NCBI GenBank assembly: GCA_018398765.1
Contig: JAHBMJ010000168.1
Location: forward strand, 1-64,000
Origin: Chromera velia
Lineage: Eukaryota
DNA: 64,000 nucleotides
Direction of reading: 5' to 3'
Positions within the stretch are counted from its first letter, which is position 1. Each line of letters opens with the position of its first letter. The position numbers were made by a program, and so were the translations under genes. The notes below the pieces were generated by a model. It was not told the DNA's origin, did no database searches, and was given only the letters and a program-made list of their open reading frames with translations. Below, in pieces: positions 4,960 to 56,477 of the stretch.

Positions 4960-7558
4960 TGTGTGTCTGTATGTCTCTCTCCCTCTCTCACACCCACACG
5001 CATACACGCACGTGTAATATGTGTATTGACAGCAAGCTTGCATGATAAGTTGTATGAGCATACTGTTGGGTACACGTCTTTAGCATAAAAACATTCATGA
5101 ATTCACCGAAATTCACGCTCTTACTGATTGACCTGACTCTCTTGGTTTCCTCTCTGCTTTGTTGCAGGGGGCTTCGAATCCCTTGGCGCGCCCTCGGAAG
5201 ACATCGGTTTCCTTGGAGCAGAGTGCCAGAGCCCTTGCACTCCATCGCAGGAGGGACTGTTGGCTGGTTCCGTTTTCTGTTGGGACGGGGGTTGCAGTTT
5301 GCGGGGCTCCAGATCTTGTTGGACAGATGATTGAAGACCAGGCAAAGGAGGTGGAATTTGAGGGGATGTCGCAAGATGGTGTTGTGGTGGATCGAGTTCT
5401 TGGGAGAGCTGCCCTACTCAGGGCAACACCAAGTAGGTTGAATTTTGACGTCCTGCTCACTCAAACCGAAAGTAAGGAAGGTCGACTTGCTCTCCTGCAG
5501 TCGCTCACCGAGCAGCTCCCTGGATTGGTCGTGACCCCCGATAGGGAGCGCCTCGAGTTTGACGGCGATCTGTACATGGAAATCCACGCAGCCATACACA
5601 TGTTTACCCGAGGAAACTGTAGCACAAAGGCTACTGCTCGTACGCTGGCCCTCGGGAAGGTTGTCAACAACGTGACCATCGGGGAAATCGTCCGTGAAAG
5701 AGGCCTTTCGGGTCTTATCACCCCCAAAAGAGTAGGCCCAACGGCACTTGCCGAAAAGTTGTCCCGGGGGGGGAAAGACATCAGGCTAACTCGCAAGGAG
5801 CAGGCAGATGTCGGTAAGGCACTGCTGGGTACTGCCGCCGCCTCTCGTGAAGCCGATACAAACGGGTACCTCAACACCCTCGTCCATCTGTATGTCCCGG
5901 CTGACTCTGCTGCAGCGGGTGTAGCTACGTCCGCACCGTGTCAAGCAGCAGCAGCGACAACAGCTAAATCAGCATCCACGGTCTCTCGGGCCCCTATCCG
6001 ATAGGCGCAGTTGCAGTCTGCAAAGATGGCAGACAACATTCGGAGAGCGGCCCCCAAGTCTTCTGATAGTTGGGAGATGCCTCAGGCAATGTCTGGACAG
6101 CCCTACCCCCACCACCAACAGCTACCGATCGAGACCCGGTCTTCTGGCCACAGCCGTAGTCCAGGAGAACCGCCCGAGTACAAGTGTTCTCTCGTCGCGC
6201 TTCTGTGCCCCTTTGCAGGTCCGGAGGGGGACAGGCAGACTCTAGTCGCAGTCCTGCAGAAGGCAGGCTTCCTGTCTGACCTGTCGGGCCAGAAGCTCGC
6301 ACTGTTGATTCAGTACCTGGCAAGTGCTCGAGTCTTCCGCACGATTCCGGTCTGCCGTGTTGTATTTGTAGATCTGCAGTCTCCCTTCCTTGTACCTCTC
6401 GCACAGAGAGTGTCTCTTCCCGCCTCTGTTTTCACCGTTCGCGCTTCGGTGGACTACGTGTTTCTGGGGGGGGCAGCCGAAAAGGCAGTCACAGGATGGG
6501 AGCTGCTCTGCAGGCTCCACATTGTTGTGGCCTCCGCAGATGTTTTGGTGCAGCTTTTGTACATCTGCAGAGAAAAAATGAGTTCCGGGGCAGCATTTGC
6601 AAGGCTTTTCCCAATTCCTTCCCATTCTGATTCAGTGAAAGTGAGCGACAGGGAGTGGGCACACCTTCACGGCATCTATGAGCGCGGGACCGACGAGCAT
6701 GTTAAAAGTCTGCGAGAGCGCACTGAAGGTGGGGTTGCCGTCACGCAGGAGGAGGTGTGTGCACCAGTCTTCGACAGTTGGCTTGCAAAAGCGTTGTCTG
6801 AGGCCGCAGCCAGCCGGGCATCCAAAGCAGAGGGTAAAGGATCCGAGGGAAGCCGATCAGAGGGGGGAGTCAATCAGATGCAGGACGTGATTGCCAATCT
6901 GGGCGATAGAAGCCGTGCTCTCTTTGTTTCCCATCCCTCCGCCAGCGTTGAAACAGCAGAAACAACCGCAGCTGCGGCTGGGACGGGGAAACTGAATCTC
7001 CCTCTCGGTGCGATCTCCCTCCGTAGAGCCGCCCCCCAGACCACTCCCGAGCGAGGGGCAGGTGAGCAAAACACTGAGCGAGCATCAGAGGGAAAAAATA
7101 AGCGGAAGAAGAGACGACTCGAGCTGCAGCAGGCCGAAGGCAATGGCCCCGAGGGAAGCGCCCCTCCACCCTCCCCTTCCAATAGAACCCCTAGTAGAAG
7201 CCCCCGTGGCACGCCTTCCGCACATGCATCCAGTGGGTCAGAGAGAGGGGGGGCACCGAGCCCTAGGAGACTGGAACAGTGGACAGACGAAATCTTAACG
7301 ACGATCTACAGAGCACATATGGGCGCTGTCCTGGTTGCTGCAGGATTCGAGTTTGACAAGTGCTTCCCAATCTTGTGCGTACCCCTTAAGGACAAAGTCA
7401 TCTGGTGGGTAAGGAAGATTGCGGGTCGCCTCACGGGGCAGGATGCTCATGCATCTGGCTCTGCTGCATCCTCCTCCTCCTCATCGTCAGCTGCGGCTGC
7501 AGCAGTCCCTCTCTCCTCCGTGCACACAGATGGCAGAGCTAGTGGTGAAGGGGGATGA
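2780..7558 (+). CDS. Dicer-like protein without helicase (platform/PAZ-like region + RNase IIIa + degenerate RNase IIIb). Internal in-frame TAG at 6002-6004, so possibly a pseudogene
   Basis: Exons 2780-3337, 3702-3880, 4148-4418 and 5168-7558 are joined by phase-consistent GT-AG introns. RNase IIIa: LLQSLT...ERLEFDGD (5546-5569)...VVNNVTIG...[11 protein letters not shown] (5798-5830). RNase IIIb-like: [15 protein letters not shown] (from 6449) and [20 protein letters not shown] (7289-7348). ORFs 5159-6004 and 6011-7558 share a frame. Confidence 0.75.
4593..4975. repeat. Intronic compound microsatellite cluster (CT)n(GT)n / (CA)n(GA)n
   Basis: Three alternating-orientation compound dinucleotide blocks within intron 3 of the Dicer-like gene. 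Confidence 0.9.
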
Positions 7559-9679: not shown

Positions 9680-11179
9680 TTACAGAAGGAACATCTCCTT
9701 CAGGTGCTGGTTCAAAAAAATGCCTTTCGGGTCCATGTCTTCCCGAATCTGCAGGAACTCGTCAAGCTTGGGGTACACGAGGGACAGGTAGAACTTCGTG
9801 TAAGGAGAGATGATGTACTTCTTCCCCCAATGAAACCTTGCACCGTACTTCTCCCCAATGCTCTGCAACACAGCGGACCACAACTGGAATTCACGAAGGT
9901 CTCCGGGGCCTGCTCTCGTCCCGCTGACGATCAGAGAGATCACCCCTGTGGTCCTCTCATACTCGGGTGACATGTACGATACAGGGTCCGCAGACACGTA
10001 ACGCATCATCACCTGCACACGCACGTAGTTTCTGTGCAGGTCGGAGAGAGACCAGATACGCTGAATGAATTCCTTGAAGGCGTCGAGAGACTTCTCGACA
10101 GGGAAGAACAACTCCATCTCAGTGAACTTGCTGCTACCTGCACGAGCGCTGCTCATGGCCTTGAAAGAGGCGTCTGCGCACGTTGAACGGTACACGCGGG
10201 ATATGCGTGTGTCAGACAACACAGCCCACTCCTTTCTCCTTTCAGCCCTTCTCTCGAGGGTCAAATTTCGTGCCAGCTCCTGAGCGAGGGCCTCTGCGGC
10301 CAATTCCATCGGGTCGTCTTCCTCCTCTGCCTCTCCTGCAGTCCCATTCAAAACCTTCTGCACCTCCTCCTCTTCCTCTTCCTCCTCAGGGCGGCACCTT
10401 CTGATGTTCTGCACTACCGCCTCATCAATCTCGGTGTACGCAATCACCATACCGCTCAGCTGACGGAAAGGCTGCACAACGAACTGCATTCTCGGGAACT
10501 GTTCATACAGGGCGGGAACCTTCTCAAGGAGCTCCTCAACGTCGTAGTTGACTACCAGAGACCTCTCAAGGTAGTACTTTGGCACAGCTTGGAACGTGAG
10601 TGTGCTCACGACACCCAATGCACCCAGGCCCACCCGGGCAGCTGCGAACAGCTCTGGGTTCACTTCGGGAGAGGCAGTGATCACAGTGCCATTCGCTGCG
10701 ATGAGCGACAGGCTTACGATTGCTTCTGAGATTGTTCCAAGCTCCCTACCAGTTCCGTGGGTGGCTGTTTGAGTGGCACCAGCCACAGACTGGACACTCA
10801 CAGCACCCAACTGAGGGAGTGCCCACCCGAACTCATCAAGAATCTCATTCAACTCATACAGCCGCATACCTCCCTGTACTGTGATTTGCATCTTCTCCCT
10901 GTCCACGGACACCACAGAGTTGTAAGAGTCCAAGGACATCAAAGCACCCCCTCCATCTGGGGCCGCAATTGGGGACCAGGAGTGACCTGCCCCCACCAAC
11001 TTGAGGGTCAGGTTCTGTGTGGAAACGGCATTCACGATCTGAACGATCTCGTCCTCGCTTGTGGGGGTGACCAGAGCCACCGGATGAGCAACCACACCGC
11101 CCTCCCAATTCTTCCATTCAGCGGCCGCAGCGGAGACTGCAGCCGCGATCACACTCACGGAGGTGAAAAGAAGCCGCAT
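9680..11179 (-). CDS. FAD-linked L-gulono-/D-arabinono-1,4-lactone oxidase-like protein with a signal peptide, single exon
   Basis: 499-aa ORF. WKNWEG start of the FAD_binding_4 fold, VGAGHSWS (position of the FAD-linking His), QSVAGATQTATHGTG, ARVGLGALGVVS, C-terminal HWGK and REDMDPKGIFLN. Hydrophobic leader MRLLFTSVSVIAAAVSAAAA. Confidence 0.9.
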   Translation of the reverse strand: MRLLFTSVSVIAAAVSAAAAEWKNWEGGVVAHPVALVTPTSEDEIVQIVNAVSTQNLTLKLVGAGHSWSPIAAPDGGGALMSLDSYNSVVSVDREKMQITVQGGMRLYELNEILDEFGWALPQLGAVSVQSVAGATQTATHGTGRELGTISEAIVSLSLIAANGTVITASPEVNPELFAAARVGLGALGVVSTLTFQAVPKYYLERSLVVNYDVEELLEKVPALYEQFPRMQFVVQPFRQLSGMVIAYTEIDEAVVQNIRRCRPEEEEEEEEVQKVLNGTAGEAEEEDDPMELAAEALAQELARNLTLERRAERRKEWAVLSDTRISRVYRSTCADASFKAMSSARAGSSKFTEMELFFPVEKSLDAFKEFIQRIWSLSDLHRNYVRVQVMMRYVSADPVSYMSPEYERTTGVISLIVSGTRAGPGDLREFQLWSAVLQSIGEKYGARFHWGKKYIISPYTKFYLSLVYPKLDEFLQIREDMDPKGIFLNQHLKEMFLL

Positions 11180-11713
11180 CTTCCTGAGCTATCTGTCAAC
11201 AAACAAAAATCGCTCGTCGATTGCAACAAAACAATGCTCTCTTGTCCGTTGAACCGATCCCAGTGAGGCTGTTCCAGCTTTTTTCAGCTGATCTTCTTTC
11301 CGGAAGACTGAATCTTTGAAATTTGTGGGATTCGAGGGGAGAAATTTTGCGCCGCGGTCGGGGAATTCAAGCCGATTTTGGTTGTCCGCGCGTTCGGCCC
11401 ATGAAGGGGACCTGCATGGTCGGACCCACGGACGTTCGGACCAGACCTAAATCGACTTTGCGATCTCACTTGTGCGAAAGGAGTTCTGTTGACACGAGCT
11501 AGTGGGGCCTGATCGAAGGACACGACTGCCTGCTCAGGCACTTGATGGAACATAAGAAAGACTGTCGAACACGGGTTCTGCCGGTGAGGCACTCCAACAT
11601 CATTCTCGAGCGTAACTTGACCGATCTGCGCGAAGAGGCAGACAGAGGGCGAAAGACTTGAGCTGTGCTGGAGATCAGGAAGGCCCTGTACACCGAACTT
11701 GTAGAAGACTACA

Positions 11714-14700
11714 ATGGCAAAGAACACTGCCCTGAAACATCTGCAGTACTCCCTGTATGTCTGTGCGCTGATCGGGTGCATCAGGTCAGCTTCTCTGTGT
11801 GAAGATCTTTCGCCGTAAGCTGAACTGGCTGCTCTTCTTCACACTTCTGCCCGTTTGGACCCCCCCCCCCCNNNNNNNNNNNNNNNNNNNNNNNNNNNNN
11901 NNNNNNNNNNNNNNNNNNNNNNNNNNNNNNNNNNNNNNNNNNNNNNNNNNNNNNNNNNNNNNNNNNNNNNNNNNNNNNNNNNNNNNNNNNNNNNNNNNNN
12001 NNNNNNNNNNNNNNNNNNNNNNNNNNNNNNNNNNNNCCCCCCCCGTTTTCCCTGCAGCACGGTGAGGATTTACTTTTCTGATTACTACGTCCCCGTGTTC
12101 ATTCTGCTGGCAATCGCGCGTAGCATCCAGTACCTGTACACGATCTACTTCGCACACCCGTTGCACTTCGAGTCTTTGGAGGATGTCAATGACTACCTGG
12201 CGGCTGCAAGGAAGAAACTGCCCAACTACAAGGTCAGAAACGCCAGTTGTGGTGCTGCTTTGTGGAAAAGAGAGAAAAGGGATGACTTGCCTCTGTTCAA
12301 TGTACGATGTGTGTTGTTTGACTGACCTGAATAAACTGAACCTCTTCGACTGCTGCAGGAGGGATGGGTGACCGTTCGGGATGGAACCCGCATCTACTAC
12401 GAGCGGGTGGGGCACGGGCAAAAAGTTGTGGCGCTTGCCAATGGTCTGGGAGCACGTGAGTGGTCCTGGTTGAATTTCATGCATAAGGCGCGGGAGGAGA
12501 ACCTGTTCTCTGAATGTACGTTCATTCTCTGGGGCTACAGAGGACTGTTCATGTCTGGACCCCCCCCTCCTGGGAAACACTCAGTGAGGGATCACGCAGA
12601 CGACCTCCTGGACCTGATGCGCATTTTTGGAGTCCCCAGACTCCACGCAATATGGGGGTGGTCTACGGGGGCCCAAGTCGGACTGCAGGTTTGTGCATTT
12701 GCTTTCTGTATGTATGGTTTGTTCAAAAGAATTCTGTATGGAAGCAAAAATATGGGGGTGGTCTACGGGGGCCCAAGTCGGACTGCAGGTTTATCTGTTT
12801 GTTTGGTTGAGGGTGGGTGGGGGTGTGAAGAAAAGAGAGCTAGGGAAAGGCGGCCACACGTTCTTCCTGCTTTGGGTTTTTTCACCCGTCCTTCATTGTT
12901 TGAATCTCTTCGACCTTGGCTGTGTGACACTCCATTTGTTCTCTTGTAAGCTTCCTGTGTCCCCTCCAGCCTTCACCTTGAGGTGCTTTTGGTTCTGCCT
13001 TTGTGAGTGAGTGCAGTTCGCGGCAATGTACGGGGAACGCGTGGATCGGCTTGTGTTGATGAACGGTCAGTCAGTCAGGGAGTCATCTCTGCTGCTCGTT
13101 TGGCCCCCCTCAGCTTTGCTGTCGAGGTTCGGATACGTTAATGGGAGTTTGACGAGTGCATGCGTGCGGTCGAGAGACTTTGGGGAAGACAGAGAACGCG
13201 TCGGCGGATCTGTTTTTGTGCGCACGATTGCATACGCATGTTGTATTTGGTTGGTGTGTCACTGCAGGAGCTCATGGACACACGCTTCACTCGGCTCTTC
13301 AGCCTGTGCTTCCCATTCCCTTCATGGGAGAGGCACTTCAACTGTTCGTCCACTACATCCGCACCCTTACCCCCTCCATATGGACCTGGATCGGCAGACA
13401 AATCTATTCCTACCAGACCTTCTTCAGGTCCGCAGCAGGCAACCTCCGTCACGCCGTAATACGGGCACTTTTGATTGTGTATGTGATAATGACAGGCTTG
13501 CAAGCACACGAAGTGAATCACGTTTTTTTTTGTTCGCGGTACTGGTGATTTTGGGCGATGGGGAGTTATGCTCTCTTCTTCCACAGGCAACTTTCTTTCT
13601 GCACAGAAAGACATGGTACTGGACTAGCAAGTTGAGTAACCTTTTTAAATTGCTTGATCGATTGATTATGTTTCTGGCCGAGCTTGCTTGCAGGTGGTGC
13701 ATTCGTCCCTACGCCGTCCTGCACGGCAACCCGGTGCTCGAGTGGGCAACGCTGCTGTACTTCGCAGACGCTTTCGACTTCCACAGGGGGCAGAGCGACA
13801 AGCACACGCTGGTGGGTCGCGTCGGGCCTTGTCATCTCGTTTGTCCCTCATTTTGTGTGGGTGATTCAGAAGTCTGTATCTGTTGGGTTTTGCGTTTCTC
13901 GTTCAGCTGATCCAAAGTCCCTTCCATAGAGCCTCCTTCCTGTTCATGTACGCGTACCTGCCGTGCATACGCAAACATCTCCCATATCTCTGGATGCATG
14001 ATTGTCTGCAGTTTCTTCTACAGACGTTTCAGGAACTAGACGCCCACAGCGCCTTCCACCTGCTCCCTGAAATTCGCACGAAGACCCTGATCATTGGAGG
14101 CTTCTGCGATTTCCTTACGCCAGTCTACCACAGCTTTGCGATGAATGCGAGGATGCCGGATGCCCGTCTTCTCTGCTACTTCTTCGGGACTCATTTCACC
14201 TGTTTTGAGTTCCCCCAGTCAGTCTCCAGGGAAGTTATTCGATTCCTTCAGGAGCCTGCACAAAACCCCTACCTTCCTCTAACCGACGCAGCCACCCCGA
14301 CAGAGGCTGAAGCCAAAACCAGCAGCCCGTCTGAATGGGATCAGGAGTGGGAGAAGCAGGGCTCTCTCAACCTCGACGCCTTGGACGGAGACGGAGACGG
14401 CACGGGTCTGAATCAGGACAGCCAGACGAGCAGGATATTTAGGTATCTTCCTTTTGGATCACCCAGACGCAGAAGGGGGCCACGAAAAGCTCAGTATAAC
14501 TACAAAACTGCTTACGCTCCTGTCCTAACCCCTGCCTATAGACACCTGGACTCCCCATCTGTTGCCGCGGCAGCTGCAGACCCCTTGCTCTCCGTCCCCG
14601 CTCCCCCTTCTTTCAGCCTTAGCCGTGCAATCCAACCTCCAGCGGCTTCCAGCCTGAATCAGTCTTCCTCCATGGCGCGCTCTCTCCTTTCCCCCGAACC

Positions 14701-19060: not shown

Positions 19061-20465
19061 AGTGCGGCTTTGTAGCTTGAATATTAGCTTCGCACTATAT
19101 ATTTTGAGACTATAGTCTAGTCTGTCTAGATTGTACTACTTGATGAATTAATTGTTTAAATTTGTTTTAAACTAATCTAGAAACTAATTGAATTAACTGC
19201 AACATCTACTAAGGCATCGAATGCAGCATTCAAACTTTTAAACATCTAAGTCTATCGGTCTAAAACTTAAACTAAAAGCCATATGTAAAGAAAAGTTAAA
19301 TTGAGCAGCTAGTAGGTAGAGTGGCTAGTAGAATTGTAATACTGTGATATACTACTACTAGTAAATCTAAGCCTCGTGTTATGATAAAACAAATTCTATA
19401 AGCACTTAGCCCCTGATTAGATTTTTTAAGTTGCTTATTGCTTCATTTTGGCTTGAACTAGTACTTCTAAGATCTAGTTGTAACATATTGCTGTTATTAT
19501 ATAATAAATCTATATAATATGCTGTTGACTCGAATTATTTTATCATTATTGTGCCTGGAGTAACATGCATGTTTCATAAATCATGCCAGTGATTAAGACC
19601 TCAACCTAGACCTTAACGGCCTGGCCACTGCCAAATCTCGGGCCGATTCTCGGCTTGCATCGTATGTTTGTCTCCACTGTCGAGCCTCATTTCTCTTGTC
19701 GCTTCTGGTTGACTGTGATATACGACACTGGCAGACCTGCAGTGCAGTGCAGAACAGGGAAACGACCGGCCGGCATACACAGAGGATCAAAGAATCTGAT
19801 GCAAAAGACTAGAGACTCACACATCAAACAACGCTGTATACGTCAAGTAGGTCAACAGATGAACGCTGCAAAGCCATCTACAGCTGCAAGGCAAACAGAC
19901 CTTCCCCCACCAGAGCTTGACCTCTGCCCAATTTGATTCGAAAAAAACTGTAACTCTTCCGAGCCCAAATGTGCAAAAACCAAGTTTCCCTCAACCAGTC
20001 CGTCTGGACGTTAGACCGCTAGCTGTACCTTTGATGACCGATGCATGCACGCATACTCTCTTGAAAAATTAAAGAAATTTGAAGCTTGACTGACCTGATT
20101 GGAGATGTCCGTCTTTTCTGTCTTTTTGTTCGCCTTTTCCAATACAGTCAGAGAGAAGGAACGACTCGACACCGTAGTCGCCCAGCGGTCTGTCTCATGT
20201 TTTCCCGGGCACCCTGAAGTGTTCTGGATCCCCGTACGGAACGTGCGTCTGCGCGCCTGGGCGTGCAAGATAGTGAGCGTGGTGCATGCCTGTGTGGTTG
20301 CATACAAGTGTACAGTGACGTAGAGTCATGCAGTGTGTTTGCGCCTGGCTGCCCGCTCGTTGCTCCCATGCATTTGTCTCTGGTCTCTCCCCCACTCTCT
20401 CTCTTGGTGCCTCACTCCCTCTGAGGGCTGCGGGACGACGGTCCATGGAACTAGTAACTTCTCAA

Positions 20466-22367
20466 TCAATCCCGCTTGCCTTCCCCCCCTTCTTCCGTTG
20501 CCTCTCCTCTGCTCTCCCTCTGTCCTGTCAACTCTTCCTTCTCGTCTCCCCACCCCAGGTACCTGACGAAGACCAACAGCAAAACGGCAAAAATGTTCAG
20601 AAGGAGGCCTGCACGAAGCCAGATCGTCGCTGCCCAAGATGATGTCCAGCCAAACAGAACAATATTTAACAAAATGGAAACAATTTCTATACTCACCGAC
20701 AGCGCAGCGTAGGTTGCTTTCAGGTAAAGAAACACACACAAAAGACAGAGAAAGGCCTTAACAGCCATTCCGAGCATGCCAGTGGCAAACTCGCCGGAAA
20801 TCGAATTTTTGCACCATTTCCACCACGTCATGTCCCCCCTACAAAGAACAGCCCGCAGCCTCCTCTCGACTCCCTCAAGCTCCTCCGTGACTCTCGGGTC
20901 CACACGGAGGACCTGTCGCACACCACCTTCCTCAAAAAACGCAAACAGCTCCCGCGCGTCTCCGTGAAGAGCAAGCACCACTGGTGCCCCTTCCCGACTG
21001 AGCATCTCAGCCGCCTACACGCGGAAAGACTTCACTTCCAGCGGCGGCTGTCTTTTCTCGCACCAGAGAGGCTTCCGATTTTCCACAGAGATCATCGCCC
21101 CTCTGTACGAGATGCAGTCGCCCTCAATCAGTACTGCACCGTCGTGGGAGTCTTCAGACGGGTCGAAGATTGAAACAAACTGGTATCCCCACTCCACCTT
21201 TTCCTTTTTTTGTGTCTGCCGCGGCAGGATGAAAGGGTCCTCAGGGTCCCTCGTTGGGAAAACCATCAGGGCCCCCCACCCGATCTCCGCAAGTTGGGTC
21301 ATCCCCGCCAAGCACTCCCTCAGGGTTTTCCGGTCAGTGGGCGTCACCTCCCGCACAATGTGTGGACACACAAGCGCATGCAGGCCAATGGCCACATGGA
21401 TCCACCCACCTTCCCCAAATGCCACAATCCCCGTGACAAACAGATGTGCTAAGGCAACACCCAACGCGGCGCGGCTGTGCAAAAAGATAGGTGTGAGCAG
21501 TTCGAACAAGGATCCCAGAAAATGTTCCTCACTCCATGGATCTGTGCTGTCGTAGGCCTTCCGAATTTCCTCTGCAAGCTCACCTGCCTCACTTCTACTA
21601 TCGGCCACTGCCAATCGGGAGTGGCATGTCCTCCCATGCATCAAAGGGTCTGACCAGTTGCGAGGGGCATCCGGAAAGACAAGGGAGAACTGTTTTCTTT
21701 CTTCAGAAACGACCACCACTGTCGCCTTGCCAAACGCTGCCAGGTCCTCTGCCGCGCCATGCCGCGACCCCCTGCTTCTCCGACCTCCGTTGGACTCGCC
21801 GGGGCTAGTCTCGGGGAGGCTAAACTGCAAGGTTCGTCGGTGCCTCGAAACAAATATCGGTTTCACAAACAATCCCGTCTCCTCAATGAAGTCACCGTGA
21901 ACCACAGTCACACCAGGCCTCACGGATTTCCACAGATTTTCCACAGTGACCGCTAGTTGCTGGTGAGTCGCAGGTTCAGAGGTCGCTGCCACGTCTCGTT
22001 TCTGCAACGGCCACCAAGATTTGCGGAAGGGAGTGCACCCACGAAGAGCCACCGTCCCGCCTTGGCCATTGCGTGCCAGCCCGACACAGTACGTTGCGAT
22101 GGCCAAGAGAGTTTCATTGGATACGCGCGGATGCTGCTGTTTGACTCGGAGGATTAAGTAGGTGATGGGCAACACAACCAGGACTGCGAAAACAACCCCC
22201 CAAAAAAATGTTGTTGATGCAAATAGTTTCACAGGATATGTAAGCCATTTTCTTGCAAACCCATGGGCGTTGCAAGAGTCAAGATAGAGGAGATCAAGGA
22301 AGAAGAAGGAGCACACAAGGCTCGCGCGAAGCGAGTTTTCGGATAGGACCCCCCGAAGAACATTCAT
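20466..22367 (-). CDS. Multi-pass membrane protein with two DisA_N/DAC (diadenylate cyclase-like) domains. Internal in-frame TAG at 21015-21017
   Basis: From ATG 22367 (MNVLRG): TM segments; DAC1 (AIATYCVGLARNGQGGTVAL...GSRHGAA 21750-21770...VVVSEE, VSEE at 21699-21710); TM segments; DAC2 (MTQLAEIGWGALMV...SIFDPSEDSHDGAVLIEGD, HDGA at 21135-21146...FRV*AAEMLS); then more TM segments. ORFs 21015-22550 and 20466-21005 share a frame. No introns are evident. Confidence 0.8.
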
Positions 22368-23803
22368 CTCAATATCGCGTGTCTGAATCTGGTTGCCTGA
22401 ATGAATAGTGCAGGACCACTTTGTTGCCTTGATACTGCAATCAGAAGTCGAATGCTGACAGGCCGCAGGGTATAGCTGCAAGGACAACAAAAGGCTGATC
22501 GAACGTTTGATCGAATCGATTGGATCGATTGCATGATATATAGTGTGCATCGATTTTCAAGAGTGGATCGATAATATAGGTCAGTCACTTTCGATCTCAT
22601 CCAACGCTGTCTGCGTGCATGCACTTGACACAATTAAGAGCATGCAGGCCGGCAGGCCTGCATTGCGCCCGCGACGCGTGTTTCGGACGAGCCTATATAG
22701 CTAGCTCGATCGAGCTCGCGGGCGCGCATGGGAGTTACGCAGCCACGGGGGGCTCGAGTACGTGTTCCTTTGCGAGTGCCGGGGGCATAACGCCCCGGCA
22801 CAGGCAGTGTCAGGCACCAAGGGACACCGACGGTGACTGGAAGTAAATGGAAAGCCTAAGTTTTGACGCTGAACTTCTAAACTGAACCGAATGCACATTA
22901 AATTTTTATATACTTAAGTTATTACTAAAACAAAGTGTATCTTGGTGTTTTGTTAGCTGGTGCTAGCTGCTGCATGCATGGTCCCACAAAATTTGAAACA
23001 AATGAAGGCATACCAGCTGATTACCATTTGATTGTATGCAGATTCAATTTATAAAACCCCAAGTAAAACTAAGTAAAATAATAATTTAAAAGGAACAGAG
23101 ATAAGGGTTCATAAATATGTATACTTTAGAATTAGTTTGATATTTCCCTTCTAGGTTGAACAAATCCCAAACAGTGTAAGCCGACCTCCGGCAGTCGACT
23201 GCGGGCAAAACCCGGGACATCAATTTTATACTATGCTATATTATTTAGCTATATATGCGCGTGAAGATTTCGATCTCGTAAAAAACACCTCATCAAAAAG
23301 TGTGCTATCATATGATATTGCTAGTGATATTGTNNNNNNNNNNNNNNNNNNNNNNNNNNNNNNNNNNNNNNNNNNNNNNNNNNNNNNNNNNNNNNNNNNN
23401 NNNNNNNNNNNNNNNNNNNNNNNNNNNNNNNNNNNNNNNNNNNNNNNNNNNNNNNNNNNNNNNNNNNNNNNNNNNNNNNNNNNNNNNNNNNNNNNNNNNN
23501 NNNNNNNNNNNNNNNNNNNCCCCCCCCTCCCCTCCTGGCCATAATCATCATCATACATACTATTATGATTATTATTATTAATAATAATCGGTCTATTGGC
23601 CATCATGCAATGCATGATCATAAAAAAATTTATATAATATTTAACATTTTAAAAACATCATGCCATGATATCAAATTGTCGTATTGTTTACTAAAGCAAC
23701 CTAATTTTATGAAAAGTAATGAAAAGAATTTAAGCTACTAGGAACTTCAAGTTTCAACGGCTGTTTTCCGAAAAAGAACTATTTGAATTCAGTTGGATCT
23801 CGA

Positions 23804-25727
23804 TCATCCCTCATCATGTGATCTATTGCGGCTAGCACACCGGTTGATCACGGCTTCGTCTTCAACCGTCGACTGCAAACTTGCAGCGGACATCGAGGTC
23901 TCCAAGACTTCTGATTTAGAAGCCTCTTCCTGAATATAAACATCCTCCACTGCCTGTTCAGCTGGTTTTTTCTTCGAGGCAGACATAGAGTCTACAGAGG
24001 ACACAGATTTGCGCCACAAATTTCTCGAGTCTGTTTCTTTCAACTTGGACCTGTGTCCTTTCAAATCTCCATTCTTGCTCTTTGTGTCTTCCTCGGAGTT
24101 CTCTTTCGACGCCACCTCTTGTTGCTGTTGTTGCTGTCTCTGCATCGCTGCTGCTGTAGTTCCATGCAGCATGTCCATGAAGGCAAACGGAAAGCCGAAG
24201 TTGACGTTAAAGAGTCCGTGGTGCCTGCATGCGACAAACGGTCAAGAGCTTTAGATATCCTTCCCTTCCTCTGTATGACATGCGCACCCACAAAAACTCC
24301 GGGACATCCATTGGCACGCAACTGCTTAGGTAACGTTCCACAGCATTTAACACTTCATGATTGAGTCCTGGAAATCCGAAGAGTTCAGACCAATTCACCA
24401 ACATGAACACGTACGCACAGACACACACGGACCCCCCCNNNNNNNNNNNNNNNNNNNNNNNNNNNNNNNNNNNNNNNNNNNNNNNNACACATTAAAAGAT
24501 AAACATCGCTGCCACTCAACAAGACTCTTCCCGCTTCCTCCCTAGAGCGTCTCCTTCATTTCAACCTGTCATGACTGGATTCTCACTTGGCCCTCTGCAG
24601 TCGACACGCGACATTCATGTGTCAATAAACAAATACATCCTCACTCACTTGTCGTGATCCTCCGCAGTGTACAGCAGAGGCACCCCCAACCGGATACCCG
24701 AGTGGTCGATCACCCCTGTAGCCCCCATGATGACCATGTAAAGGAGGAACGACCGCACGGGCACAACACGAGGCCACCAGAAGGCAGGCCCCCAGAGGAT
24801 GAGGTAGTAGAGGACCACCTCCACAGGGTGGGCGTACAGATCGTCGAAGGGGGACGGGGCCTTGTACCTGCATGCAGCCTCACAAACAGGCAGACACAGT
24901 CACTTATTTAGTCACTTACTTTCGGAAAGGAGGAGACAGGGAAAACAGCAGAAGAGCAGGCAGAAATCGGAAGGAGAGAAAAGAAGGGAGAAAGCAAAAA
25001 GAAAAGCAAGGAAGACAGACAGGAGCGGACGAGGAAAGAAAAGCGAAGAAGCATGCATGAAAGAGGGGAGCAAAATGTGTCGTCTTCTCCTCGTCTCTTG
25101 AGTATTCAGCGGGGAGGTCACGATAGAGGAAACGGATCAACAAGAGAGAAGCCACAGTTTTTTTGCATTTCCTTCACCACACCGATCGATGCACAGACCC
25201 ATGCACGTACCTGTGGTGGAGTTTGTGGAAGTTTCTATACATAAAGGGCAGATGGAATATCCGATGGAAGTAGTACTCTCCTGCCGTCTCGTAGATGCAC
25301 ATCACAAACGTCACGAGGAACACCTGGAGAAGGTCCACCCAGAAGTCCTTCACAGGGGGTGAGTAGAGAGATCCGAGTTCCCTGATGTTCAACTGCAAGG
25401 AGGCATGAAGAAGATACGGAAAAGACGGGGTGGGGGGGGAGATGCGGACGTAGAGGGGTGCGAGGGAGAAAGAAAGAAAGCAATGAATGAATGAATAAAT
25501 GAATGAGTGAATGAATGAATGAATGAATGACAGGGAGACAAACTGAGCTCCGAGCTTGTCATTCAGTGAGAAATGGAACGTCAGTCGCAGTCAACCCAGT
25601 AGGTAGCCAGTCGGTTCTATTTTCTGGGCTTCACAAAATGTCTTCGCGTCAATCAGCTCCCGAATGACGCAGCATTTTCTCCCTCTCTCCCTGTGTATTT
25701 GTCTGTTTCTCTTTCTCTTTCTCCTTT

Positions 25728-29705: not shown

Positions 29706-32700
29706 TGTGTGTGTGTGAGAGAGAGAGATTAAGCGTGTGCATGCGTTTGTGTGCAGACTTTCGAGGAGTTGAGATGGGAAGATCTACAGGCAGGGAGGAG
29801 GGGGCCAGGGGCGCTGTCGGCACCTGTGGGTGCGCCTTCCTTCGGAGGGGGGGCGGCGGCGTCAAGTGGGGGCACGGTGTTTGGGGGAGGGGGGGCAGGG
29901 CAGCCTGGGCAGGGACAGGGTGGCATTTTTGGTTCTTCCGGAGGGGCAGGTCTTTTTGGACAGGGTGGCGCGGCAGCTTCTGGAGGTGGGTGGTCCATTC
30001 AACAAGTCTGTCTTTTCTGCCCTTCTGCCTCCCGGCCTCTCTGCATCTGCCGGCCGCATGTCTGTCAGGAGAGGAAATGGAGTTTTGTGAGGGAGGCAAA
30101 GGAGAGATACGCAAAAAGTAGCCATAGAGACTGCCTCTTTGTCTGTATGTCGGGAGACCTCGAAAAGAAAGGGGATGTTTATGGGTCATGGATGAGCAAC
30201 CTGAACGGAAACGTGTTAGAACGGTTCAATCGTCCTGTATCAAGACGTTCCTCTATACGCGTGCTCCGCTCTCTCTGATCTCATGAGAAAGTAAGAAGAG
30301 AGAGAAAAGAAAAAAAAGAGGCGGAAAACAAAGTTTGAATTGTCTTTGCTCTGTTCGGTGGCTCTTTATGTGTCTGTCAGTCTGTAGGCCGCCGTGTCTC
30401 GCGCATTATCTGCCTTGCTTCGTCGATTGTGAGGGAAGGCTTGTTCTAAACAGTTTCCTCTAGTCTTCTCTGATGCTTCTGCCTGCTGGTCTGTCCCCTT
30501 CATCTGCTTGCGCTCGGGTCGCCTGCACAGAGAGGCTGCGAGCCCTGGGTTGGCATGTGGTGGAAGAGAAAGAAAAAGGCTCTGTGAGAAGCAGAGAGAG
30601 CACTGCTTTGCAAAATGTAGGCGTGAACAGAGGCGACACTGTGTATCGACATCCACTTTTCCCCTGTGTCTCCATCGTTTGCAGCCCCGCAAGCGCAAGC
30701 GCAAACGGGCGGACTGTTCGGTCAGCAGCAACCGCAACCCCAGCAGCAGCAGCAGCAATCATTTGGTGCTTTTGGGCAGCAGGCCCAACCTTCTCAAGCG
30801 CAGCCGCCGACTTCGGGTCTGTTCGGCCAACAACAGCCGCAGGGAGGGGGGGCATTTGGCCAGCAGTCGCAGCAGGGACAGGCAGCAGGTGGGGGGGGTC
30901 TTTTTGGTCAGCAGACGCAGCCGAATGCCGCCGCCACACAGGGGCAAGCGACGGGTCTGTTCGGCCAACCTCAGCAGACGAATGCCGCTCAGGGGCAATC
31001 TGCCGCTCCCTTCGGTCAGTCTCAGCCGAACCCGGCCACACAGGGACAAGCGACAGGTTTGTTCGGTCAGCCAGCGGCGCAGGCTCAGACAGGGGGGGCG
31101 TTTGGGCAGCAGCAACCAGCTCAAGCTCAGACAGGAGGCTTATTTGGGCAGACCCAGCAGCAGCAGCAGCAGCAGCCGGCACAGGCACAACCTGCAGGTT
31201 TGTTTGGACAGACCCAGCAGCAACAGCAGCCAGCGGCGCAGGCTCAGACAGGAGGGGCGTTCGGACAGACCCAGCAACAGCAGCCGGCGGCGCAGGCGCA
31301 AACTGGAGGCTTATTTGGGCAGACCCAGCAGCAACAGCAGCAGCAGCAGCAGCAGCCGGCACAGGCACAACCTGCAGGTTTGTTTGGACAGACCCAGCAG
31401 CAACAGCAGCCAGCGGCGCAGGCTCAGACAGGGGGGGCGTTCGGACAGACCCAGCAACAGCAACAGCAGCCAGCGGCGCAGGCGCAAACTGGAGGCTTAT
31501 TTGGGCAGACCCAGCAGCAACAGCAGCAGCAGCAGCCAGCGGCGCAGGCGCAGACGGCAGCAACATTTGGCCAAGGGAGTGCCCAGCCGACACAGGGTGC
31601 CAGCGTTGGGGGGGGGAATCTCTTCGGAGGAGGGGCCTCCACAGCTTCTCCCGCCCCTGCGACCGGTCAGGCGAGCGGAGAAACCCCAGGGGCCTCCTCA
31701 GCTCTTCAGCAGAACCCCCAGCAGCAGCAGCAGAATGTAGCACAAACACCCTCTCAACCGACAGAGCTCAAACGTCATTCCTGTTGGTATCTCCTGCACC
31801 ACTCCCCTTCAGATGGACGGGGATCACCCCCGATGTCCCCTCCTGAGCCGTCGCCCCCACCCCGCCCACCTAAACCGGCACCCCTGTTTCAAGACTGCGA
31901 ACTGATAGGTGCAGGCCACCCAGGCGCAACGCGTCCCTCTGCCTACTCTGAACGGACTCGCGAAAAGAGTTCTTTCCATAACTTCCCAAATTTCGGGACT
32001 CCCGGGACTTCTTTCGACACTCGGGGCCCGCATGGGGTATCTTTCATGAAGGGGGCCCAAGCAGACAACCGTCTCAGCAGCAGGTCGGCAGGCGGCCCCC
32101 CTCCTTCAAAGGCTGCAGCTGCAAATTTGCCTTTCGGGTCCTCCTACCAGACTCCCAATCTAGGCCAAGAGACCGGTGCCCCCTACAGCACCCTGGGGGG
32201 TCAGGAGAACGTCCCTCCTCCTACGCAGGGCCTCCAGTCGCTTGGCCTTGACCTGAGTCAGTCCTGTCACGCAGCCGCTGCGAGGGAGCGAGAGAGGGAA
32301 AGAGAAAAGGACAAAAGACAAATGGAGAAGGAGAAGGTGGTGCAAAGACAGGGTGGTGCCTCCTCATCATCCAATGCCGAGAGCTCCACGAAAGAGGGAA
32401 GCTCTATGTATCCATCCCTCCAGTCATCTTTCTCCTCCACCATCCCTCTGGGCCCCCCCGGGGTATCTGAGTCCTCTCCGAGTGCCCCTGCGTCGTCGGC
32501 CTCCTCTCCTGTGCCGGGGTCCCTCGACCTGCCTCCCTGGGCCCCGAAGCTCACAAAGGAAGGAGTGAAGACTAGTCCCGGAATCGCCACACTTCAGGCC
32601 TTCTCGAAACAGCAAATTCGTCGCGTTGCAGACTTCCAGATTTCGAAGGATGGGTACGGTTCGATCCTCTGGCCGGGAATGACTGACCTTGAAGGTGTCG

Positions 32701-32838
32701 ATCTGGACGCCTGCGTGCAGTTCCAGAATGGCTGTGTGTCCGTGTACGAAGATCAGGTTGAAGGGAAGGACAAACCTCCACGAGGAACAAAACTGAACAA
32801 GAGGGCCAGAATCACAGTGCTTTGCGCGTAAGTCCTTT

Positions 32839-53698: not shown

Positions 53699-56477
53699 CT
53701 GTGTTGTTAGGAGTAACCAACTTAGTTTGGTTACCGAGGCGGCCGTTAGGCCGCTTGGTAACCATTTTCATGGTTACAGTAATCCTGCAGAGTCACATTG
53801 ATTACCAATTTTTAAGAAAATCCGGACTAACTACCAATTTTTAAGAAAATCCTAAAAAAAAATTGGTAACTCCCATTGGAGTCTCCCAATTTTTAGGTGA
53901 CTCTAAATGTTCATAGAATTTATTCCTAATAATGAATTAGAGTCTAATGGCTGCGGCTAGAGACTAGTGAGCCCCTGTCTAGTCTGTACACAAAATTTTA
54001 GCTTCAAACTGTATGTACTTCTTTCACTAGACTAGGTACTAATTTTTCAAAATTGGGAGTTACTGGCGGTAAAAAATTGGTAGTACTACCAATTCGATGC
54101 CCAATTCAACTCCCAATTAATTCATTAGGGTGCCCGCTCCGGGCACTATATTTGTTATGGGAAGAGGGGAGGGTGGTGGCGGCTTGATTGTCTGGGTTCG
54201 CCCCGAATTGAAGGAGGGGCCGTAGACAGAGAAGCAGAGGGAGCAGGATGGTCAGACAGCAGAATGGGGGAGGGCAGCGTCGAGGAGCCCGAGAGAGAGC
54301 CCGAACCTGTCCTCCTTGACAACTGTATCTTAGGCAGTCTGAGGTATGCGGATGATCTCTGTTTCCTTGCTCATTCCGTCTCAGATCTGCAAAAGAAGTT
54401 TTCAGCCTTGGAAGGGTATTGCAAGGAATGGGGACTGACTGTGAACTTAAAGAAAACGAAAATCTTACGCCTGTCTGCCTTGGCTCTGGGGCAGTCTGCA
54501 GGGAGAGTCATGTATGGTGGGAGGGAAGTTGAATGGACATCCGAATACAAATATCTGGGGTGTGTTTTCTTTGAAGGGGGGTGTTTGAACAAGACAATTG
54601 AGTCCCGTATTACTTCTGCTTCGCGGGCTCTGGGAGGGGTAATTAGGTTGATTGCGAGCATGGGCCCGCTCAGCATTGATGTGCAGGTAACAGTCTTTAG
54701 AGCCTGCTGGACCTCCATAGCGCTCTACTGCCTTGAATATCTGCCAGTGCGGGATACAGACCTGCTCGCTCTTGATGCTTTGCAGCTTCGGTTTGCCCAT
54801 TGGTATGGTCATTTGTCTGCTCGCAGCCTCTGCCTGCCCTCTCTTTGCATCCTTGGTCTTCTTCCCTGCAAAGCCCTTCTCTGCTCCCGTATCGCTGACT
54901 GGTGGCACTCTCTTTCTATCACAACACACACTATTCCTGCAGCCATGTTGCATGCCTGGAAGAATAACTGCTGCCAACAATTCATAAGGTCTATAGATAG
55001 GCTGTTTGATTTGATTTCTGTCCGCTCGCTGAGGGTCGAGCCCGATCTGTCTTCCCAACGCGGGCAGAATGGTGATAGGGCACAAGGCACCGGCTCACTT
55101 TTCTTCAAGAGCAAGGTGAGACAGACAGTTGCAAAGGAATGCATGAAGGCTTCTGAGGATGATGGGCAATCTTCCTCTCACTTTCCCCTCCTTGCTAGAC
55201 TCACCCCTCTGCAGCGCGACTTCCCGTCCTCCCACTGTATGTTTGTCTTCCTCCTGTATAGCAAGTCGTCCTCCGGTGTTCTTTCCGTCTCTGCCCTTCC
55301 CCGTTCTGCCCTGTCGGTTACGGATGGCTCGATCTTTTCTTTTTTACGCATGCTGACATACAACCCGATGGGCGGGCAAAGTGGGCTGCCTGTTGGTTGC
55401 TCTGATAGAAAGCTGTGCACCTATGAAGCCTGCTGCCGGTATGTAGATGATTGTATTCATCGGCTCTCTGTCTGCCCCCGATGGACTGCCGAACAAGGCT
55501 TTTTGCAGTGGTTAGCATTAATTCAATCAGACCGCTTCACTCGTTGTGACTCACCCTTTACATCCGCCTCTAGGACCTTTTCGAATCTGGGGGTTCGCAA
55601 GTTCATCACATCGCTCTTGCGCTCTCAACCCTCTCTTCTCTTTATGATTTCTCGTCATATTGTAGTAAATGATTGATTAGATTAAGTTCGAATAACTGTC
55701 GTCCACTTAGCTTGCAGCTGGCATAATTGAACAGACCCATGCATGTATGCGCCATCCAGGAGTTCTAAGTCCACCTAGGGCTTGGTATCAATCAATCAAT
55801 CAAGAACTGGGCAACCAAGATGTCCTCGGGGGACTGTTTGGTGGAAATAACAAGCCGATCGAGGACTACACGTCCTCCTTTCTCATGTATTACAGGAAAG
55901 ATAATCCAATGCCTGCGCATTTTGCCATTTGATTATTAAATTACATTGAACAAACCTGTCGCAGATGTGTATCGATCGCATAATTTTTGCATAATGATTC
56001 AAATTTGGGTTTTTAACAAGTTTTTGACAAGTTTTCAACTTAAGTTTTAGTGGTTGTTCAACATGATTTTAGACTCTAAACAGTAAAAAAGTTAGTGTCA
56101 AAATTTTTTTTTTTTAAGAAAAACATTTGCGTGCCGAAGCGAGAAGGTGTGGGGGGGAGGGGGGGGGGATCTTGCGTACCATTGGCACTCAAATGAATTT
56201 TTACATGGCCCCAAACAACTTAGACAAAAAAAGTTTAAAAGTGATCTTTTTAAACTTTTTTACGTCGTACTCTACTCGTACACAGTTTTTGAAGATGCGT
56301 TTCTCCTGTATTAGATCTTGATGCAACATGATGCAACATATTTGTGGGCAGATATAGCTAGATTACCGCGGTAGTGGTAATCCCCTCAGACCCCCCTAGT
56401 TACCAAGTTTTGGTTACCAATTTGATGGTAACCAAAAGCTTTCTAAGAAGGGCCGGTAGTTACTCCTAACAGCACAG
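53699..56477. mobile_element. TIR DNA element flanked by TA(TA) (Tc1/mariner-type target), containing a nested LINE fragment
   Basis: Left TATA|CTGTGTTGTTAGGAGTAAC; right GTTACTCCTAACAGCACAG|TATA (1 mismatch). GGTTACC/GGTAACC/TACCAA subterminal repeats at both ends. Confidence 0.65.
54157..55803 (+). mobile_element. Non-LTR retrotransposon (LINE) fragment: RT C-terminal half, CCHC-like end and (ATCA)n tail
   Basis: ORF 54264-55676 with LRYADDL, GLTVNLKKTKIL, EYKYLGC and C-terminal CTYEAC...DDCIHRLSVCP. (ATCA)4 at 55787-55802. Upstream GRGEGGGGLIVWVR (from about 54160) resembles an APE endonuclease motif. Confidence 0.88.

What the first reader, a model, noticed from the sequence alone, without database searches (positions are those of the whole stretch)
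20466..22367. Eukaryotic membrane protein with two DAC (c-di-AMP synthase-like) domains carrying complementary half active sites
Seen in sequence: the architecture is TM-DAC1-TM-DAC2-TM. DAC1 keeps GSRHGAA and VVVSEE but has RPGV in place of HDGA. DAC2 keeps SIFDP...HDGAVLI but has FRV*AA in place of TRHRAA and LHGD in place of VSEE. Established: bacterial and archaeal CdaA/DisA make c-di-AMP at a head-to-head interface of two DAC domains, with HDGA and RHR/SEE residues contributed across the interface; c-di-AMP synthesis is not an established eukaryotic pathway. Inference: this may be an intramolecular pseudo-heterodimer with one composite catalytic site, analogous to the C1/C2 halves of animal adenylyl cyclases. 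It could make c-di-AMP, a linear pppApA, or another dinucleotide signal in a protist. The lack of introns and the isolation between TE debris fit a horizontally acquired gene.
Basis: partly seen in the sequence, partly recalled or inferred. Interest (0 to 1): 0.9.

Follow-up and report, generated by a model that had tools for sequence, protein, structure and literature searches.

The report
Broken copy of algal double-DAC enzyme
This gene is a stop-broken copy of a membrane protein from a Chromera alga; its unbroken sister copy has two bacterial-type c-di-AMP-synthase domains that each keep only part of the catalytic residues, so the sister likely works as one single-chain enzyme that would join two nucleotides.

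Summary
The motifs are real and both halves are DAC domains (Pfam PF02457 42 bits, cut-off 27; both match DAC structures). It is present in both DNA runs laid, and it is CAG in the only relative found, Chromera velia Cvel_14962 (74% identical). Contigs of a second, about 1% diverged isolate read CAG there but carry two other stops, and their differences look neutral (3 silent of 21). The window gene is therefore a pseudogene. The sister copy is open across both domains, keeps the same reciprocal pattern and shows purifying selection (93 amino-acid differences against 127±6 neutral), most strongly in the 'degenerate' half of DAC2. Likeliest working mode of the sister (about 45%, inferred, no activity or pairing shown): DAC1 holds the donor ATP, DAC2 supplies His-Asp, one bond per turnover, giving pppApA or, after rebinding, c-di-AMP. 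Topology is unresolved. I found no paper on a eukaryotic or tandem DAC, but the key DAC-architecture review was not available. The scan earlier noted a different, also frame-broken, eukaryote-looking DAC gene on other DNA.

The parts
20466..22367 (-). Whole reading frame, 633 codons, broken at codon 451; pseudogene copy of the Cvel_14962-type tandem-DAC membrane protein
21015..21017 (-). Premature TAG (codon 451); CAG/Gln in the sister copy and in the second isolate's copy
22149..22205 (-). Predicted N-terminal transmembrane helix (residues 55-73), followed by basic residues
   Evidence: hydropathy
21663..22136 (-). DAC1 (residues 78-235): His-Asp of HDGA replaced by Arg-Pro; G-S-R-H and S-E-E kept
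21354..21533 (-). Inter-domain segment: a conserved amphipathic helix (279-296) plus two hydrophobic helices (300-317, 321-338); predicted hairpin, three-pass reading not excluded
20898..21341 (-). DAC2 (residues 343-490): HDGA and first Arg of RHR kept; G-T, His and Ser-Glu-Glu replaced
20568..20777 (-). Three predicted C-terminal transmembrane helices (531-549, 554-572, 582-600)
20350..20547 (-). Remnant of the sister protein's C-terminal tail in a different frame (41% identity over 69 residues, E 0.12): probable frameshift after the last helix, shared by both isolates
22811..22897 (.). High-copy repeat upstream of the gene (summed contig depth 685 against 28 for the gene's own contig)

Best explanation
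The window gene is a stop-broken duplicate of the Chromera gene Cvel_14962, and that unbroken sister likely encodes a membrane-anchored, single-chain DAC pseudo-heterodimer with one predicted working half-site. Shown: two DAC folds, the motif split, the stop, the second copy, selection on the pair. Inferred mechanism for the sister: both domains lie in the cytosol and pack face to face; DAC1 binds the donor ATP by its triphosphate (Ser160, Arg161, His162, Ser180) and a metal (Glu182); DAC2 supplies His365-Asp366 and holds the acceptor nucleotide (Arg406) in a remodelled pocket (Thr to Phe405, His to Val407). One phosphodiester bond would form per binding event, giving linear pppApA (or pppNpA if the remodelled pocket takes another base); c-di-AMP would need the linear product to rebind reversed. 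Confidence by step: window copy dead about 0.9; sister functional about 0.75; composite catalytic site as its working mode about 0.45 (the figure given).
For: Pseudogene: TAG in contigs identical to the window in 2 of 2 DNA runs; CAG in the sister and in a clean window-type contig of the second isolate (X6 record 17, 2 differences in 208 nt); that isolate has its own stops at codon 322 (3 of 4 runs) and 393 (2 of 4 runs); 3 silent, 15 missense, 3 stop changes among 21 differences, as expected if neutral (P 0.10-0.22) and unlike dN/dS 0.3 (P 0.002 or less). Sister: open frame with only a 2-residue gap across both domains; 93 of 447 residues differ against 127±6 in 2000 neutral simulations, lowest 109, dN/dS about 0.29-0.47; DAC2 C-half 50 of 55 identical, P 0.0004 against neutral, with many silent changes among the listed rows; sister-type contigs occur in runs guessed to be RNA. 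Mechanism: residue roles in CdaA (Asp binds ribose; Thr, Arg, His, Ser, Glu bind phosphates and metal) from PMC7288161 section 2.3; face-to-face dimer required (PMC8573169 passages); 3'-OH of one ATP attacks the alpha-phosphate of the opposing ATP with pppApA as a free intermediate (PMC3900455 passages). That His170/Asp171 of one protomer share a metal with Glu224 of the other is recalled from the 6HVL paper, which I could not read.
Against: No pairing, topology or activity evidence. The full-length model failed (pLDDT 30.5). Only two sequences carry the pattern, so conservation of the motif residues themselves is not significant (12 residues at 79% background identity, P 0.06). DAC2 retains Asp and Arg, the two residues whose mutation kills minimal PanS enzymes, so the split is incomplete. 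CdaA catalytic domains also form a back-to-back dimer. The inter-domain segment may be the three-pass CdaA N-terminal unit, which would put the domains on opposite sides; charges around the three C-terminal helices do not give a consistent orientation. The sister's annotated N-terminus is shorter with a weaker helix, and part of the selection signal may be historical. The second-isolate contigs are shallow (depth 3-6), from one study, with no DNA run of that isolate laid.
Confidence: 0.45

Rival explanations
1. The sister protein is a pseudo-enzyme: a membrane nucleotide sensor or scaffold in which DAC1 binds ATP and DAC2 binds a nucleoside or dinucleotide without catalysis.
For: Neither domain has the full DGA+RHR+SEE set; single DGA or RHR mutants of CdaS are inactive as homodimers (PMC4568413 passage); strong conservation of the remodelled DAC2 C-half fits a binding pocket equally well.
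Against: The residues kept are the complementary ones expected for one composite site; a pure sensor would not need His365-Asp366 and Glu182 together (inference).
Confidence: 0.2
2. Catalysis does not use the DAC1-DAC2 face-to-face site: either two DAC2 domains from two chains form a PanS-like minimal active dimer with DAC1 regulatory, or the DAC1 C-half and DAC2 N-half form one swapped (circularly permuted) complete domain that dimerises.
For: DAC2 keeps Asp366 and Arg406 and one acidic residue in the SEE region; PanS works with a GGR motif and needs only these two residues among those tested. The two significant halves are the inner ones, the pattern left by tandem duplication on the way to circular permutation.
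Against: DAC1 alone models as a complete DAC fold; the outer halves are as conserved as the inner ones (78% and 91% against 84% and 79%); Phe405 replaces a small residue at the base-contact position.
Confidence: 0.13
3. The inter-domain segment crosses the membrane three times as in CdaA, so DAC1 and DAC2 face different compartments and cannot share a site.
For: phmmer and the Atlas align this segment with CdaA N-terminal units; CdaA has three predicted helices there (PMC10243994 passage); the first helix has mean hydrophobicity similar to a CdaA first helix.
Against: The first helix is amphipathic (moment 0.26-0.32 against 0.10-0.13) and far more conserved than the predicted transmembrane helices (22 of 24 against 65 of 119, P 0.0005); basic residues precede both domains; homology of the segment to CdaA_N is not significant (113 and 77 of 500 shuffles).
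Confidence: 0.1
4. Both copies are decaying relics of a transferred bacterial gene; the motif split is historical and nothing is made today.
For: One of two copies is dead in both isolates; no relative outside this species in 1.84 billion representatives; the sister's N-terminus is uncertain.
Against: The sister has no stop across 447 aligned codons although about 3 are expected per lineage if neutral, and the pair shows dN/dS well below 1.
Confidence: 0.1
5. The TAG is read through (reassigned code or editing) or is an assembly error, and this locus is itself functional.
For: Contigs from runs guessed to be RNA show CAG at this codon.
Against: Those contigs differ from the window at 20 further sites and carry two new stops, which marks another isolate, not editing; two DNA runs show the TAG; a neighbouring 502-codon ORF has no internal stop under the standard code.
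Confidence: 0.02

Closest known systems
CdaA/DacA membrane diadenylate cyclase (TIGR00159; L. monocytogenes 6HVL/4RV7, S. aureus 6GYW), especially the deltaproteobacterial CdaA and CdaA-YbbR fusions with SIFDP-x-S-x-x-HDGA
   Same: DAC fold, membrane anchoring, HDGA, G-x-R-H and SEE motifs; best sequence and structure hits.
   Different: Eukaryotic host; two DAC domains in one chain; no domain has a complete motif set; far below the family cut-off (20.2 against 188.8 bits); three extra C-terminal helices; no YbbR.
PanS minimal DACs of PanDA/Panoptoo anti-phage systems (bioRxiv 10.64898/2026.08.10.743972 and .743927)
   Same: DAC domains with altered RHR motif; a break of symmetry in the DAC active site that changes the product (3'3'-cUA).
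   Different: PanS is a soluble homodimer whose asymmetry is conformational; here the asymmetry would be encoded in two different domains of one membrane protein.
CdaG/DS-2C proteins (DACNG-DACNH-DAC)
   Same: A possibly DAC-derived, catalytically dead domain (DACNH) precedes an active DAC (passage).
   Different: There the last domain is complete; here neither is. No DACNG/DACNH match was reported by Pfam.
Animal membrane adenylyl cyclases (C1/C2 pseudo-heterodimer), recalled
   Same: Works-like analogy: two homologous domains separated by membrane helices with one composite site.
   Different: Unrelated fold (class III cyclase) and product (cAMP); analogy only.

Membership tests
DAC domain family (Pfam PF02457, DisA_N) | Profile score above the curated cut-off | tested here: met
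   42.1 bits (window) and 40.5 bits (sister) against 27, two stretches each
DAC domain family (Pfam PF02457, DisA_N) | Complete DAC fold in each domain | tested here: met
   DAC1: TM 0.65-0.67 over residues 38-200 in the Atlas's own model. DAC2: Z 8.8, rmsd 3.7, 134 aligned to 7dg0, from a model guided by a bacterial alignment, so weaker
CdaA/DacA (TIGR00159) | Equivalog score above cut-off | tested here: not met
   20.2 bits against 188.8
CdaA/DacA (TIGR00159) | DGA, RHR-type and SEE motifs together in one DAC domain | tested here: not met
   DAC1 lacks His-Asp; DAC2 lacks Gly-Thr, His and Ser-Glu-Glu, against invariance in 65-67 bacterial rows
CdaA/DacA (TIGR00159) | Three-helix N-terminal membrane domain (PF19293) before the DAC | tested here: inconclusive
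   No Pfam CdaA_N hit; not significant against shuffles; aligned loosely by phmmer and the Atlas
Active diadenylate cyclases | Two DAC domains face to face | not tested
   No usable model of the pair; full-length model pLDDT 30.5
Active diadenylate cyclases | Makes c-di-AMP from ATP | not testable with these tools
   Needs an assay of the sister protein
Intact protein-coding gene (this locus) | Open frame under purifying selection | tested here: not met
   Stop at codon 451; other stops at 322 and 393 in a second isolate; neutral-looking differences

The most novel reading that the evidence does not exclude
Probability: 0.35. Interest if true: 0.85.

Novelty: new variant of a known kind. Interest (0 to 1): 0.58.

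Why it matters
DAC enzymes are described from bacteria and archaea as symmetric oligomers. A tandem DAC with a split site in a eukaryote would extend DAC signalling to a new domain of life and would predict an unusual product (a linear or mixed dinucleotide) from a one-bond active site. The test is direct: one named gene, two soluble domains, a standard LC-MS assay. The window locus itself is dead and the family has only two known members in one species, which limits the reach.

Tried and rejected
No whole genome was held, so further copies in this genome could not be counted beyond the two contig types seen in each DNA run. Three word-seeded protein searches: only Cvel_14962 or nothing among 829 candidates; longer and shorter length classes were not searched. 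phmmer over 1.84 billion representatives: the sister itself and 5 weak bacterial CdaA-type hits. No relative in metagenome (592 pattern hits, 0 confirmed) or viral contigs (19, 0 confirmed); these pattern scans find close relatives only. Full-length AlphaFold2 from a 2-row alignment was unusable. Foldseek on the DAC2 model gave no match at E 0.001 or better, though the top rows were all CdaA/DacA. hhalign of DAC1 against DAC2 and of the helical segments against CdaA gave nothing significant. No model of the DAC1-DAC2 pair was obtained, so pairing is open. No listed run is on record as RNA; X3-X6 are guesses, so expression is not shown. Seven difference rows (21054-21101, one contig of X4) were dropped from the 28 listed as a chimera with the sister copy. 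The 80 bacterial loci were fetched with a bacterial query, so they do not identify a donor; no tree was built. GC3 (0.60 against 0.67 for a neighbour) gives no transfer signal. Literature: 10 searches listed no paper on a eukaryotic or tandem DAC; Chromera plus c-di-AMP gave one unrelated paper. The Galperin 2023 DAC-architecture survey, the He 2020 review and the 6HVL paper were not held and may bear on novelty and mechanism. No supplements were read.

Full report
What is there. The minus strand carries one frame from ATG 22367 to TGA 20466, 633 codons, with a TAG at codon 451 (21017-21015). Pfam DAC scores 42.1 bits against a cut-off of 27, in two stretches; NCBIfam CdaS and CdaA are hit far below their cut-offs. 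A profile from 84 bacterial CdaA sequences (80 loci plus P0004-P0007) hits the C-half of DAC1 (17 bits) and the N-half of DAC2 (33 bits); hhalign gives 94.6% and 97.8% for the same halves. The other halves are marginal or not significant by sequence, but the Atlas's own model of the sister protein matches DAC domains over all of residues 38-200 at TM 0.65-0.67, and a model of the middle segment plus DAC2 (mean pLDDT 58.6, built on a 68-row alignment) ranks DacM, CdaM, CdaA and CdaS first at Z 8.8, 8.3, 7.9 and 6.3. Two DAC domains are therefore real.

Where it comes from. The only close relative is Cvel_14962 of Chromera velia, 635 residues, 74% identical. Each of two DNA runs holds one contig identical to the window over 19800-22882 and a second contig about 85% identical (196 differences and a 6-nt gap over 20797-22136) at similar depth. 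The second contig's listed differences translate to Cvel_14962 residues, so the genome holds two copies and the window is most likely Chromera velia DNA (inference). Among 1.84 billion representatives the sister finds only itself and five weak bacterial CdaA-type proteins; metagenome and viral contigs gave 0 confirmed relatives. A bacterial origin is likely; no donor was established.

The window copy is a pseudogene. The TAG is in both DNA runs and is CAG in the sister. Four runs of one other study (guessed RNA, same species label) hold shallow contigs 98-99% identical to the window copy. Of 28 listed differences I dropped 7 from one chimeric contig; the other 21 lie in 1781 of 1899 coding bases covered. 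Codon 451 is CAG there (X6 record 17 has 2 differences in 208 nt and spans sister-diagnostic sites on both sides), but codons 322 (X4, X5, X6) and 393 (X4, X5) are stops. The 21 changes are 3 silent, 15 missense and 3 stop changes: compatible with neutrality (P 0.10-0.22) and not with dN/dS 0.3 (P 0.002 or less). A remnant of the sister's C-terminal tail lies in another frame at 20547-20350 (E 0.12) with no indel between the isolates, so a frameshift after the last helix probably predates their split. Independent stops in two isolates are what a recently dead gene shows. Limits: one study, depth 3-6, no DNA run of that isolate.

The sister copy looks functional. It aligns across both domains with one 2-residue gap and no stop. 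Over 447 codons 93 residues differ, against 127±6 (lowest 109 of 2000) if the 196 base changes were neutral; dN/dS is about 0.29-0.47, an estimate because not all base differences were listed. This contrasts with the isolate comparison (Fisher P 0.002-0.03). The supposedly degenerate C-half of DAC2 is the best conserved domain part (50 of 55; P 0.0004 against neutral, 0.018 against the protein's mean), and silent changes among the listed rows argue against gene conversion. It looks re-specialised, not decayed. The sister's start codon and N-terminal helix are uncertain.

Motif anatomy (sister numbering, against 65-67 bacterial rows). DAC1: His to Arg109, Asp to Pro110; Gly159, Ser160, Arg161, His162, Ser180, Glu181, Glu182 kept. 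DAC2: His365-Asp366-Gly-Ala kept; Gly to Ser404, Thr to Phe405, Arg406 kept, His to Val407; SEE replaced by His-Gly-Asp or Gly-Asp-Ala depending on register. In CdaA the Asp binds the ribose and the Thr, Arg, His, Ser and Glu bind the phosphates and metal (PMC7288161, section 2.3 read). Catalysis needs a face-to-face pair (PMC8573169, PMC6368335, PMC10167629, PMC11376277; passages), and proceeds by attack of one ATP's 3'-OH on the opposing alpha-phosphate with pppApA as an intermediate in M. tuberculosis DisA (PMC3900455, passages; not seen for CdaS, PMC4568413, passages). The sharing of one metal between His170/Asp171 and the other protomer's Glu224 is recalled, not read. On that basis DAC1 is a donor-ATP site and DAC2 an acceptor site, and the pair would have one working half-site. 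Against a clean split, DAC2 keeps both residues (Asp, Arg) that minimal PanS enzymes need (bioRxiv 743972 section 7; 743927 parts 1-3 of 5).

Topology. Hydropathy gives one N-terminal helix, two helices at 300-338 and three C-terminal helices. The helix at 279-296 is amphipathic and much more conserved than the others (22 of 24 against 65 of 119), and basic residues precede both domains. This favours a hairpin with both domains in the cytosol. CdaA has three predicted helices in the corresponding place (PMC10243994, passage) and the C-terminal charges do not fit neatly, so the point is open. The full-length model was unusable and no model of the domain pair was obtained.

Context. A high-copy repeat lies 450 bases upstream; otherwise the neighbours are ordinary genes, one of them a long single-exon ORF.

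Novelty. Ten literature searches listed no eukaryotic or tandem DAC (search listings only unless named above; also passages of PMC10249747, PMC13700151 and bioRxiv 2022.03.11.483894). The most relevant survey (Galperin 2023) was not held. The scan's notes hold one other eukaryote-looking, intron-split and frame-broken DAC gene in another genome (e1-7376012), which I did not test; no note matched this sequence.

Verdict. Observation partly confirmed; this locus is a dead duplicate (about 0.9). The interesting object is the sister gene Cvel_14962: probably functional (about 0.75), most likely a single-chain DAC pseudo-heterodimer with one composite site (about 0.45). It works like a DAC pair but is not a member of CdaA by the family's own criteria. 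New variant of a known kind; interest 0.58.

Noticed in passing
window 19800-19961, 20460-20514, 22250-22404: The sister contig also resembles the window outside the coding region, which points to a DNA-level duplication of about 3 kb, not a retrocopy.
   Followed up: partly
window 9680-11188 (-): Uninterrupted 502-codon ORF with FAD_binding_4 and ALO domains (L-gulonolactone oxidase-like); shows that long single-exon genes occur here.
   Followed up: partly
window 54129-55673 (+): Long ORF with a YADD motif, reverse-transcriptase-like by eye; not scanned against Pfam.
   Followed up: no
window 30627-32828 (+): Nup98-like gene with FG repeats and the autopeptidase domain.
   Followed up: no
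window 5132-6004 (+), 12335-12949 (+), 24645-24899 (-): Exons with weak RNase III, alpha/beta-hydrolase and fatty-acid hydroxylase matches, all below the curated cut-offs.
   Followed up: no
L001-L080: This deltaproteobacterial CdaA group has RHH instead of RHR in 60 of 65 aligned rows, so the third position of the motif is not fixed.
   Followed up: no
window 20966: The second isolate's copy changes the His of LHGD to Asn, one more sign of relaxed constraint on this copy.
   Followed up: yes
window 22263-22367 (-): Residues 1-34 end in a hydrophobic stretch and a small-residue motif that resembles a signal peptide by eye; the sister's gene model starts downstream of it although its DNA is similar there.
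   Followed up: no
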